From IMG/VR virus record IMGVR_UViG_2558860170_000002: a stretch of DNA of 37,042 nucleotides; one strand, given 5' to 3'. Shown here piece by piece: positions 3,434 through 3,689 of the stretch (position 1 is the stretch's first letter; the number at the start of each line of letters is the position of its first letter). Origin of the DNA: a virus. Its lineage: Duplodnaviria; Heunggongvirae; Uroviricota; Caudoviricetes. The translations under genes were made by a program, and so were the position numbers. Under the pieces are notes generated by a model that was not told the DNA's origin, made no database searches, and saw only the letters and a program-made list of their open reading frames with translations.

Positions 3434-3470
3434 GAATAATATTTTTTGGAATGTAAGGTAAATGTTAGAT

Positions 3471-3510
3471 GCCACTATAGATTGAGGGTTAGAACTACTA
3501 ACCCACTATA
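3471..3510. repeat. 9-bp direct repeat CCACTATAG flanking a GGGTTAG/CTAACCC hairpin
   Basis: Direct reading: CCACTATAG at 3471-3479 and 3502-3510; 7-bp perfect stem 3486-3492 / 3498-3504 with a 5-nt loop. Lies between convergent genes. Confidence 0.4.
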
Positions 3511-3689
3511 GGGTTTACGAGATGATAAGAATGGAATTTAACACCTACGATGGTGATATATATTACTTCCTCTATTTATATAGGAGGTACGAAAGGGGGA
3601 GTACTTTAATGAAGACCTTATAAATCTTAATGTTGAGATGTTAGTTATAGCGGTGAGGATACCCCACCGTCTATTGGGAGTTGTGGACT

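What the first reader, a model, noticed from the sequence alone, without database searches (positions are those of the whole stretch)
3465..3515. Hairpin flanked by direct repeats that match the T7 promoter core
CCACTATAG occurs twice, 31 bp apart, around a perfect 7-bp hairpin. The second copy reads CACTATAGGG, identical to positions -7 to +3 of the T7 class III promoter. The upstream specificity region does not match T7 or T3, and no single-subunit RNA polymerase is in the window, so the promoter reading is unlikely. The local symmetry still suggests a protein-binding or recombination site between the convergent island genes.
Basis: seen in the sequence. Interest (0 to 1): 0.35.

Follow-up and report, generated by a model that had tools for sequence, protein, structure and literature searches.

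The report
Decayed leader hairpin of a dead gene
The "T7 promoter-like" repeat around a hairpin is real but matches T7 by chance: it is the eroded upstream leader, a conserved stem-loop that partly covers the ribosome-binding site, of a small prophage gene that is broken in this Shigella sonnei prophage.

Summary
The sequence is as described: CCACTATAG at 3472-3480 and 3503-3511, and the hairpin GGGTTAG-aacta-CTAACCC at 3486-3504. It is not a T7-type promoter. It matches only 12 of 23 promoter positions, the prophage encodes no phage RNA polymerase, and the motif is not enriched.

The window is a low-GC, IS-riddled prophage of Shigella sonnei. The "intergenic gap" holds a third gene that was overlooked. 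It belongs to an 85-91-aa family widespread in related Enterobacterales prophages. Here it is a pseudogene (3522-3697) with a 1-nt and a ~96-nt deletion.

In 34 related loci (about 26 distinct sequences) this gene carries a conserved ~55-nt leader: TAAATA, then a three-part hairpin, then AGGA, then 8 nt, then ATG. The stems covary. The second "T7 core" is the 3' arm of that hairpin plus the Shine-Dalgarno sequence. The first copy arose only in the S. sonnei lineage, through a 5-nt deletion and one substitution. CTATAG is self-complementary, so the two "direct" copies actually base-pair.

The architecture resembles the bacteriophage T4 gene e / I-TevI leaders, where a late-promoter box forms the 5' arm of a hairpin that hides the ribosome site. 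No gp55-like sigma factor was found, so that part stays a hypothesis.

Seen in passing and unexplained: AGTACT occurs 106 times in the window against about 11 expected.

The parts
3463..3521 (+). Eroded 5' leader of the small gene (family consensus: TAAATA box, three-part hairpin P1/P2/P3, Shine-Dalgarno sequence, 8-nt spacer)
   Evidence: Covariance model R1, built from 26 relatives, hits 3463-3524 at 32.3 bits (E 6e-5). Relatives score 65-85 bits.
3472..3480 (+). First CCACTATAG copy. It is the remnant of the TATAAATA-box / P2 5'-arm region (relatives: CAC.TATAAATAc.TAGAA), created by a 5-nt deletion plus an A-to-G change. In this lineage it now pairs with 3506-3513.
   Evidence: The four-way alignment with L023, L025 and L054 shows the deletion and the substitution. 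The fold pairs CTATAG 3475-3480 with CTATAG 3506-3511, and G3471-C3473 with G3512-U3514.
3486..3504 (+). P3 stem-loop GGGTTAG-aacta-CTAACCC, the conserved apical hairpin of the leader
   Evidence: It is kept in all 34 related loci that carry the main leader type. It covaries as GGGTTAG/CTAACCC, AGGTTAG/CTAACCT and AAGTTAG/CTAACTT.
3503..3513 (+). Second CCACTATAG copy plus GG. It consists of the last two bases of P3, a bulged A, the P2 3' arm (CTATAG) and the Shine-Dalgarno-like GGG, 8 nt before the ATG.
   Evidence: The family consensus is CTAACCcACTAT(a/g)G(g/a)ATTTAcgaaATG. The A/G at the position equivalent to T7 position -1 covaries with its pairing partner (columns 27/59: CG 11, UA 6).
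3522..3697 (+). Pseudogene of the 85-91-aa small-protein family. The ATG is at 3522. The N-terminal stub MIRMEFNTYDGD... stops at 3624-3626. The C-terminal remnant ...EYFNEDLINLNVEMLVIAVRIPHRLLGVVDSN* is in another frame and ends at TAG 3695-3697.
   Evidence: Pairwise alignment with the intact E. coli gene L067 4001-4276 shows a 1-nt deletion and a deletion of about 96 nt. Mean pairwise identity in the gene is 0.92 at codon positions 1+2 and 0.73 at position 3.
2960..3433 (+). Upstream 157-aa cargo gene of unknown function. It occupies a variable slot between the HNH-247 gene and the small-gene leader.
   Evidence: Homologues are listed. Relatives have other cargo, or nothing plus a terminator, in this slot.
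3690..4358 (-). Convergent 222-aa gene of unknown function. Its 3' end overlaps the small (pseudo)gene by 8 nt.
   Evidence: ORF list. The same 8-nt overlap is seen in E. coli L067. Homologues or distant homologues follow the small gene in most relatives.
34531..34566 (.). Second element of the same design in the same prophage. The palindrome TAAATA-CCTATAA-n5-TTATAGG-(A)ATATTT fills the gap between the divergent lysozyme gene and the SegE-like GIY-YIG gene. It reads box-hairpin-AGG-ATG in both directions.
   Evidence: It is the second-best R1 hit. Sequence. Folds have z = -4.6 and -2.6. It is kept in E. coli L022 with a 9-nt instead of a 5-nt loop. Pfam SegE_GIY-YIG match.

Best explanation
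The feature is the eroded 5' leader of a small prophage gene that is itself a pseudogene in this Shigella sonnei prophage.

In intact relatives the gene (85-91 aa, function unknown) is preceded by a conserved ~55-nt cassette: an invariant TAAATA box, a three-part imperfect hairpin, and a Shine-Dalgarno-like AGGA/GGGA that lies in the 3' strand 7-8 nt before the ATG. The three helices are P1 GTAAAT/ATTTAC, P2 CATAG/CTATG or CCTATA/TATAGG, and P3 GGTTAG-cagta-CTAACC.

The second 'T7 core' (CCACTATAGGG) is the 3' side of that hairpin plus the ribosome-binding site. The first copy was produced in the S. sonnei lineage by a 5-nt deletion and one substitution in the 5' arm. CTATAG is self-complementary, so the two copies pair with each other.

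Shown: the position, the conservation, the covariation and the pseudogene status.

Inferred: on the + strand mRNA the hairpin lowers ribosome access to the start site, which is translational control of a gene reached by read-through from the upstream operon. It may also stabilise the 5' end of the mRNA.

The identity with T7 promoter positions -7 to +3 is coincidental.
For: (1) Source. The window is the S. sonnei chromosome (53G, HE616528.1 and many other isolates) and carries a serine-recombinase prophage.

(2) A missed gene. Relatives L023 and L025 have an 85-aa ORF starting 8 nt after the motif. 198 protein clusters of this family exist in Enterobacter, Klebsiella, E. coli, Cronobacter and others.

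(3) Conserved leader. 34 loci from viral, metagenome and genome collections share the leader, in about 9 different upstream contexts. Homology starts at TAAATA.

(4) Structure. 86.5% of cells are paired, against 32-43% when the 3' partners are slid. Four pairs show double changes. 0 of 500 shuffles reach the observed paired fraction or covariation score. Single-sequence folds have z of about -5.

(5) Independent designs. Three other, unrelated leader sequences of the same gene family (L044, L045, L066) again place TAAATA in the 5' arm of a hairpin whose 3' arm holds the Shine-Dalgarno sequence.

(6) Model score. The covariance model scores the window copy at 32 bits against 65-85 bits in relatives. 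The window gene has a frameshift plus a ~96-nt deletion.

(7) Origin of the first copy. The alignment shows it arose by a 5-nt deletion and an A-to-G change.

(8) Accessibility. The predicted unpaired probability of the Shine-Dalgarno sequence plus AUG is lower in long transcripts than in transcripts starting after the box in 11 of 13 leaders from this prophage family. The T4 gene e control behaves the same way (0.02 to 0.65).

(9) Not a phage-polymerase promoter. T7, T3, SP6 and K11 promoter matches are at background level, and there is no RNA polymerase in the prophage.
Against: Predicted occlusion of the ribosome site is only partial in the main leader type: 0.14-0.59 unpaired in long transcripts. 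It is reversed in L023 and in the window copy.

The leader is only slightly more conserved than synonymous sites of the gene: mean pairwise identity 0.80 against 0.77. Much of its conservation could therefore be shared ancestry.

Wobble statistics do not single out the + strand: 10 G.U cells against 27 A.C cells.

There are no transcript data. The protein's function is unknown, and its structure prediction was poor (pLDDT 52). Because the window copy precedes a dead gene, it may have no function at all here.
Confidence: 0.72

Rival explanations
1. This extends the best explanation rather than replacing it: a T4 gene e / I-TevI-style gate. The invariant TAAATA box (TATAAATA in some members) would be a -35-less promoter element that also forms the 5' arm of the hairpin. 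Read-through transcripts fold and are poorly translated. Transcripts started at the box lack the 5' arm and are translated.
For: TAAATA is invariant in all 26 distinct main-type leaders and in three unrelated leader types, while other stem positions vary.

Homology between contexts begins exactly at the box.

In L042-type loci a strong terminator lies about 50 nt upstream, and the simple sigma-70 consensus scan found no promoter-like site between it and the gene.

The lysozyme and SegE-like genes of the same prophage have the same design. The terminase small-subunit gene terS is preceded by TATAAATA 18 nt before its ATG.

T4 gene e reads TATAAATACC..GGAGGTATTATG and has the same geometry.

The T4 mechanism is documented in PMC3014915 and PMC2988022. 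The T4 late promoter is an 8-bp TATA box without a -35 element, with A at -13 as a common variant (PMC2988020).

Accessibility rises in box-started transcripts in 11 of 13 leaders of this prophage family, as it does in the T4 e control.
Against: No gp55-like sigma factor was found. phmmer and BLASTP of T4 gp55 against all six-frame ORFs of the window and of relatives gave a best E of 1.6. PHROGs and Pfam scans of early-region ORFs gave nothing.

Most leaders read AGTAAATA, with G where T4 has T at -11.

The box lacks the T at -7 that a sigma-70 -10 element needs.

There are no 5'-end data.
Confidence: 0.25
2. It is an intrinsic terminator. On the + strand it would end the operon containing the 157-aa gene. 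On the - strand it would stop antisense transcription coming from the convergent 222-aa gene.
For: The hairpin lies about 50 nt after the stop of the 157-aa gene. In L049 the scan calls the - strand version terminator-like: GGTTAGTACCGCTAACC followed by TTTCTATGTA. A.C cells on the + strand would be G.U on the - strand.
Against: No terminator-like site is found in the window on either strand. The + strand tail is CACTATAGGGTTTACG and the - strand tail is TCAATCTATAG. Relatives without the 157-aa gene keep the hairpin and have a separate, strong terminator upstream of it. L042 has a proper - strand terminator directly after the small gene. The element keeps a fixed distance to the ATG in every context.
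Confidence: 0.08
3. It is a duplex-DNA site for a dimeric protein or a recombinase.
For: The site has local dyad symmetry. It sits at the edge of a variable cargo slot where homology between relatives breaks.
Against: Spacing between the symmetric arms varies from 5 to about 24 nt among related elements. The arms covary instead of keeping a fixed half-site sequence. The element is tied in position and orientation to the start codon. The exact repeat is private to one lineage. No related copy marks the prophage ends.
Confidence: 0.05
4. It is a promoter for a T7/SP6-type single-subunit RNA polymerase, either from this prophage or from a superinfecting phage.
For: It is identical to T7 positions -7 to +3. 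The first copy matches the SP6 promoter at 15/23, including 6/10 upstream positions.
Against: Over 23 nt the second copy matches T7 at 12/23, and 443 window sites do as well or better. The SP6 score is reached by 10 sites. There is no RNA polymerase gene. The motif is not enriched. In relatives the -1/+1 region is polymorphic (ACTATAGG or ACTATGG) and covaries with its pairing partner. The family consensus matches known promoters at 11-12/23.
Confidence: 0.02

Closest known systems
Bacteriophage T4 gene e (lysozyme), soc, 49, I-TevI/II/III, segB and Aeh1 mobE leaders: an RBS-sequestering hairpin whose 5' arm carries the late promoter TATAAATA
   Same: The layout matches: an A/T box (TAAATA, sometimes TATAAATA) in the 5' arm, the Shine-Dalgarno sequence in the 3' arm, and the ATG a few nt after the stem. 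T4 e reads TATAAATACC...GGAGGTATTATG. The prophage's lysozyme leader reads ATAAATAttCCTATAA...TTATAGGTATTTAgtaaATG. The gene classes also overlap: lysozyme, a GIY-YIG Seg-like endonuclease, and a small accessory gene. The mechanism is described in PMC3014915 and PMC2988022.
   Different: The host element is a temperate, serine-recombinase prophage with a long tape-measure protein (so probably long-tailed), not a T4-like phage. No gp55, gp33 or gp45 system was found. Most boxes deviate from TATAAATA at the third position. Predicted occlusion is weaker than in T4 e. The main leader has an extra apical stem-loop (P3). No transcript mapping exists.
T7 class III promoter (TAATACGACTCACTATAGGGAGA) and the SP6, T3 and K11 promoters
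   Same: The string CACTATAGGG (3504-3513) equals T7 positions -7 to +3. The first copy plus its flank matches SP6 at 15/23.
   Different: The specificity region does not match (2-3 of 10 for T7, T3 and K11). There is no cognate polymerase. The site is a single locus, not conserved as a promoter in relatives, and scores at background level.
PeSL (promoter-early stem-loop) cassettes of T4-type phages (Arbiol et al. 2010, recalled from memory, not checked here)
   Same: Both are short regulatory cassettes of a promoter-like box plus a stem-loop at the 5' edge of small accessory genes, and both coincide with breakpoints of modular shuffling. Here homology between nine upstream contexts starts at the box.
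   Different: PeSLs carry sigma-70 early promoters and recur many times per genome. This leader is single-copy and tied to one gene family, and no sigma-70 consensus is present.
Generic Shine-Dalgarno-occluding 5'-UTR hairpins and 5'-terminal stabiliser stem-loops of bacterial mRNAs
   Same: It is a stem-loop directly upstream of, and partly covering, the ribosome-binding site. Covariation supports its helices.
   Different: No ligand, temperature or protein partner is known. It is not in Rfam.

Membership tests
T7-like single-subunit RNA polymerase promoter | Match to the 23-bp consensus, including the -12..-8 specificity region and the -17..-13 AT-rich region | tested here: not met
   Second copy: 12/23 to T7, with 2/10 in -17..-8. 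443 window sites score at least as high.
T7-like single-subunit RNA polymerase promoter | A cognate single-subunit RNA polymerase encoded by the same element | tested here: not met
   All ORFs of 600 aa or more are assigned to structural roles: protease-capsid, tail fibre, tape measure, tail protein. The remaining ORFs are all under 310 aa. The window spans the prophage from just after the recombinase to about 1 kb before its right end.
T7-like single-subunit RNA polymerase promoter | Several copies placed ahead of genes or operons | tested here: not met
   CCACTATAG with up to 1 mismatch: 7 found against 8.4 expected. CACTATAGGG with up to 2 mismatches: 34 found against 28 expected.
T7-like single-subunit RNA polymerase promoter | Conservation of the initiation region (-4..+3) in related elements | tested here: not met
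   Relatives read ACTATAGGA or ACTATGGA/ACTATGGG. The variable base covaries with its pairing partner.
T4-type late promoter with RBS-sequestering hairpin (gene e / I-TevI class) | A hairpin that pairs the Shine-Dalgarno sequence and/or the AUG | tested here: inconclusive
   The Shine-Dalgarno sequence lies in the 3' strand between P2 and P1. Predicted unpaired probability is lower in long transcripts in 11 of 13 leaders of this prophage family, but occlusion is partial and is reversed in L023 and in the window copy.
T4-type late promoter with RBS-sequestering hairpin (gene e / I-TevI class) | A TATAAATA box encoding the 5' strand of the hairpin | tested here: inconclusive
   TAAATA is invariant in relatives. 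The full TATAAATA is present in 5, and AATAAATA in 4, of 26 distinct leaders; the others read AGTAAATA or GGTAAATA. In the window it is mutated to TATAGAT.
T4-type late promoter with RBS-sequestering hairpin (gene e / I-TevI class) | A gp55-type late sigma factor (with gp33 and gp45) in the same genome | tested here: not met
   phmmer --max and BLASTP of T4 gp55 against 555 six-frame ORFs of the window, L002, L004 and L022 gave a best E of 1.6. There was no PHROGs or Pfam hit. This was a sequence-level search only.
T4-type late promoter with RBS-sequestering hairpin (gene e / I-TevI class) | Primary 5' ends about 6-8 nt downstream of the box at late times | not testable with these tools
   No transcript data are available.
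Rho-independent terminator | A G+C-rich hairpin followed directly by a U tract | tested here: not met
   0 terminator-like sites in 2800-4600 on either strand. The tails are CACTATAGGGTTT (+) and TCAATCTATAG (-).
Any curated RNA family (Rfam 15) | A score at or above the family gathering threshold, or E below 1 with lax filters | tested here: not met
   There is no match in the window at gathering thresholds. There is no match over the intact leaders of L035 and L048 at E up to 1.

The most novel reading that the evidence does not exclude
The TAAATA/TATAAATA boxes of this temperate Enterobacterales prophage family are real -35-less promoters embedded in ribosome-site-hiding hairpins. They lie ahead of the small gene, the lysozyme gene, the SegE-like endonuclease gene and terS. 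That would be a T4-style late-gene gate operating outside the T4-like phages. It would be read either by an unrecognised, highly diverged gp55-like factor of the prophage, or by the late transcription machinery of a superinfecting T-even phage.
Probability: 0.15. Interest if true: 0.6.

Novelty: new member of a known kind. Interest (0 to 1): 0.25.

Why it matters
For the finding as written, very little: the T7 resemblance is coincidental and the local copy sits in front of a dead gene.

At the family level there is an undescribed, covarying leader element attached to a widespread small prophage gene of unknown function. A sister element sits ahead of the lysozyme and Seg-like endonuclease genes of the same phage. 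If these boxes also act as promoters, the T4 "promoter inside the inhibitory hairpin" device would not be restricted to T4-like phages. It could then be tested directly in an inducible enterobacterial lysogen.

The case is also a caution for annotation. A 256-nt "intergenic" gap between convergent genes hid a pseudogene and its leader.

Tried and rejected
- Similarity searches of 2900-4400 and 2940-3700 gave nothing useful. Phages returned no match in near or distant mode. Plasmids matched only the IS21 element. Among 5,426 complete E. coli genomes, one partial hit covered the 222-aa gene only.
- Rfam and tRNA scans found nothing.
- The genome-contig scan with the small-protein profile gave only 2 loci. 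The viral and metagenome scans supplied most relatives.
- An SP6-like reading of the first copy (15/23 in the window; TTAGGTG in L023) was rejected. It is confined to one subgroup, its core is disrupted in L023, and the score is at background level.
- A sigma-70 promoter at the TAAATA box was rejected. No -35 element is present, there is no T at -7, and no consensus hit was found.
- Strand assignment from G.U against A.C counts was inconclusive.
- AlphaFold2 on the small protein gave pLDDT 52 and pTM 0.24, so no fold search was run.
- PADLOC, NCBIfam, Pfam and PHROGs found nothing for the small protein or for the 157-aa and 222-aa neighbours.
- tblastn of the small protein against isolated phages gave no match.
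- A scan of viral contigs for the P3 17-mer gave 27 hits. Only the 4 contigs already known carry the full leader; L078 is a chance look-alike.
- The gp55 search was negative.

Full report
**1. Observation**

The sequence is as described. CCACTATAG lies at 3472-3480 and 3503-3511. A perfect 7-bp hairpin GGGTTAG-aacta-CTAACCC lies at 3486-3504. The second copy reads CACTATAGGG.

Neither part is unusual alone. The 9-mer with up to 1 mismatch occurs 7 times against 8.4 expected. In first-order Markov simulations of the window, about 8.5 nine-mer repeats within 50 nt and about 17 perfect 7-bp hairpins arise by chance. The combination arises 0.13 times per window and was seen in 9 of 100 simulations.

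CTATAG is self-complementary. The two "direct" copies can therefore pair, and the predicted fold does exactly that: 7 + 6 + 3 bp, -17.9 kcal/mol, z = -2.4.

**2. Context**

The window is the Shigella sonnei chromosome: strain 53G (HE616528.1) and hundreds of other assemblies carry identical proteins. It covers almost all of a low-GC (~37%) prophage that begins with a large serine recombinase just left of the window. In an E. coli relative the prophage lies between yeaG and mipA.

The prophage is decaying:
- An IS21-family element (5226-7374) splits a 183-aa gene.
- Two inverted IS3-family copies (about 11.0-12.3 kb and 27.3-28.5 kb) and a third (about 30.9-32.1 kb) interrupt the terminase and tail genes.

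All ORFs of 600 aa or more are structural: protease-capsid fusion, tail fibre, tape measure, tail protein. No RNA polymerase is present.

**3. What lies in the "intergenic gap"**

Homologues of the upstream 157-aa gene exist across Enterobacterales. In the two closest relatives (L023 Enterobacter ludwigii, and L025) the downstream DNA is homologous to the window. There it contains an 85-aa ORF whose ATG lies 8 nt after the second motif copy.

This ORF belongs to a widespread family of 198 clusters at E up to 1e-3. The protein is strongly conserved. Mean pairwise identity is 0.92 at codon positions 1+2 and 0.73 at position 3, so it is a real gene.

In the window the gene starts at ATG 3522. Compared with the intact E. 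coli copy (L067), it has a 1-nt deletion and a ~96-nt deletion. That leaves a 34-codon stub (stop at 3624-3626). An out-of-frame C-terminal remnant ends at TAG 3695-3697 and overlaps the convergent 222-aa gene by 8 nt, exactly as in E. coli.

**4. The leader**

I collected 37 further loci carrying the small gene. In 34 loci the covariance model R1 finds the same ~55-nt leader, once per locus and always directly before the ATG, at 65-85 bits. These loci represent about 26 distinct sequences.

The consensus is (t)a(g)TAAATAc(a)TAGAAAGGTTAG-cagta-CTAACCcACTAT(a/g)G(g/a)ATTTAcgaa-ATG. Homology among about nine different upstream contexts begins exactly at TAAATA. These contexts are all the same prophage family, with different cargo inserted between an HNH gene and the small gene.

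The leader folds as a three-part hairpin:
- P1: GTAAAT/ATTTAC.
- P2: CATAG/CTATG, TATAG/CTATA, or in a shifted register CCTATA/TATAGG.
- P3: GGTTAG/CTAACC.

Single-sequence z-scores are about -5. On the alignment, 86.5% of cells pair against 32-43% when partners are slid. Four pairs show changes on both sides, for example columns 27/59 with CG 11 and UA 6, and P3 as GGGTTAG/CCC, AGGTTAG/CCT and AAGTTAG/CTT. No shuffle of 500 reaches the observed values.

Three other members of the gene family (L044 type, L045, L066) have unrelated leader sequences. They again place TAAATA in the 5' arm of a hairpin whose 3' arm holds the Shine-Dalgarno sequence.

A scan of viral contigs for the P3 17-mer found the full leader only in contigs already known. 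No Rfam family matches.

**5. Explaining the two "T7 cores"**

The second copy (3503-3513) is made of:
- the last two bases of P3;
- a bulged A;
- the P2 3' arm CTATAG;
- the Shine-Dalgarno-like GGG, 8 nt before the ATG.

The base that would be T7 position -1 is A or G in relatives and covaries with its pairing partner. Selection therefore acts on pairing, not on promoter identity.

The first copy is private to the S. sonnei lineage. Relatives read CAC.TATAAATAc.TAGAAGGG where the window reads CAC-TATAGAT-----TGAGGG. A 5-nt deletion and an A-to-G change created CCACTATAG and destroyed the TAAATA box. The model accordingly scores the window copy at only 32 bits.

The region 3434-3689 is identical in 19 of the 20 S. 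sonnei-type loci examined. The metagenome contig L012 differs somewhere in the region, but its leader scores the same.

Over the full 23 nt the copies match T7, T3, SP6 and K11 promoters at 10-15 positions, which is within the window's background.

**6. Mechanism**

Shown: a conserved, covarying stem-loop sits in fixed register with the ribosome-binding site of a real gene, on the coding strand side.

Inferred: it reduces translation initiation on transcripts that include the whole hairpin. ViennaRNA partition functions give a lower unpaired probability for the Shine-Dalgarno sequence plus AUG in long RNAs than in RNAs starting 6 nt after the box. This holds in 11 of 13 leaders from this prophage family, and in the T4 gene e control (0.02 to 0.65). 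The effect is only partial for the main leader type (0.14-0.59 in long RNAs) and is reversed in L023 and in the window copy.

Cautions:
- The leader is barely more conserved than synonymous sites (0.80 against 0.77).
- G.U against A.C counts do not identify the strand (10 against 27).

**7. A closer analogy**

The second-best model hit in the window is a palindrome filling the 36-nt gap between the divergent lysozyme gene (34530, minus strand) and a SegE-like GIY-YIG gene (34567, plus strand). It reads TAAATA-CCTATAA-n5-TTATAGG-(A)ATATTT-ATG in both directions. It is kept in E. coli with a 9-nt loop. The terminase small-subunit gene terS is preceded by TATAAATA 18 nt before its ATG.

This is the design of bacteriophage T4 gene e, soc, 49, I-TevI-III, segB and mobE. 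There the late promoter TATAAATA encodes the 5' strand of a hairpin that hides the ribosome site in early transcripts, and late transcripts start inside it (PMC3014915 and PMC2988022; promoter definition in PMC2988020). T4 e itself reads TATAAATACC...GGAGGTATTATG.

This would explain why TAAATA is invariant while the rest of the stem varies, and why homology starts at the box. However, I found no gp55-like sigma factor, most boxes read AGTAAATA, and there are no 5'-end data. I therefore keep the promoter-in-hairpin gate as a hypothesis with a probability of about 0.25. For the stronger claim, a functional T4-type late system or cross-talk with T-even phages, I put the probability at about 0.15.

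**8. Rivals**

- Terminator: no U tract on either strand in the window. Relatives have separate terminators on both sides.
- Duplex protein or recombination site: arm spacing varies from 5 to about 24 nt, and the arms covary.
- T7/SP6-type promoter: rejected in sections 2 and 5 (no polymerase gene, background-level promoter scores).

**9. Verdict**

The T7 likeness is coincidence. The feature is an eroded copy of an undescribed but ordinary kind of element, a ribosome-site-proximal leader hairpin, in front of a pseudogene. Interest is low for the locus itself and modest for the family-level element.

**10. Seen in passing**

The palindromic hexamer AGTACT occurs 106 times in the window against 10.7 +/- 3.2 in shuffles. 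It is found in all reading frames and in non-coding DNA, and never in the IS elements. The E. coli relative shows the same: 60 copies in 24.8 kb of prophage against 1 in 23 kb of flanking chromosome. I found no explanation. This is the most surprising thing in the window and deserves its own follow-up.

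Noticed in passing
whole window (e.g. 66, 134, 1104 ... 36100); also L022 861-25700: The palindromic hexamer AGTACT occurs 106 times against 10.7 +/- 3.2 expected from dinucleotide-preserving shuffles, and is the commonest hexamer in the window. GTAC occurs 349 times, about 1 per 106 bp. AGTACT is present in all three reading frames (44/15/27) and in non-coding DNA, and is absent from the four IS elements. The E. coli relative has 60 copies in 24.8 kb of prophage against 1 in 23 kb of flanking chromosome. It is unexplained; possibilities include a modification target, a binding site or a packaging signal.
   Followed up: partly
window 34531-34566: The 36-nt gap between the divergent GH24-type lysozyme gene (34530, minus strand) and a SegE-like GIY-YIG endonuclease gene (34567, plus strand) is a single palindrome, TAAATA-CCTATAA-n5-TTATAGG-(A)ATATTT. 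It reads box-hairpin-AGG-ATG in both directions and resembles the T4 gene e leader. It is kept in E. coli L022 at about 22495-22535 with a longer loop.
   Followed up: partly
window 10112-10140: TATAAATA lies 18 nt before the ATG of the terminase small-subunit gene, in a 35-nt gap between divergent genes. The E. coli relative has AATAAATA at the same place.
   Followed up: partly
window 4824-4843: A near-consensus LexA (SOS) box, TACTGTATATATGTACAGTA, lies between the divergent 103-aa gene (4802, minus strand) and the gene starting at 4995. This suggests the prophage switch is wired directly to the SOS response.
   Followed up: no
window 5226-7374; 4995-5261 and 7372-7680: An IS21-family element (istA/istB, 99.7-99.9% identical to copies on Shigella and E. 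coli plasmids) splits a 183-aa gene that is intact in other S. sonnei genomes. That gene has weak EAL-domain (c-di-GMP phosphodiesterase) similarity.
   Followed up: partly
window ~11012-12285 and ~27276-28549 (inverted copies); ~30881-32085: Two inverted copies of one IS3-family element flank about 15 kb of head and tail genes, and one of them interrupts the large terminase gene (10598-11041 and 12372-13832). A third IS3-family element sits after the 783-aa tail gene.
   Followed up: no
window 2878-3521, compared with L042, L067, L026, L028: The slot between the HNH-247 gene and the small-gene leader is a cargo hotspot. It holds the 157-aa gene here, a Tlde1-domain protein plus a 91-aa partner in E. 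coli L067, and only a strong terminator in L042. Other cargo (a DpnII/MboI-type restriction enzyme, EAL, mSLOG/DUF4326) lies nearby in relatives.
   Followed up: partly
window 33721-33754 and 19204-19518: A perfect (ACAATA)x5.7 microsatellite lies directly upstream of the gene at 33770. A 75-nt repeat of 4.2 copies (25-aa units) lies inside the 883-aa tail-fibre gene.
   Followed up: no
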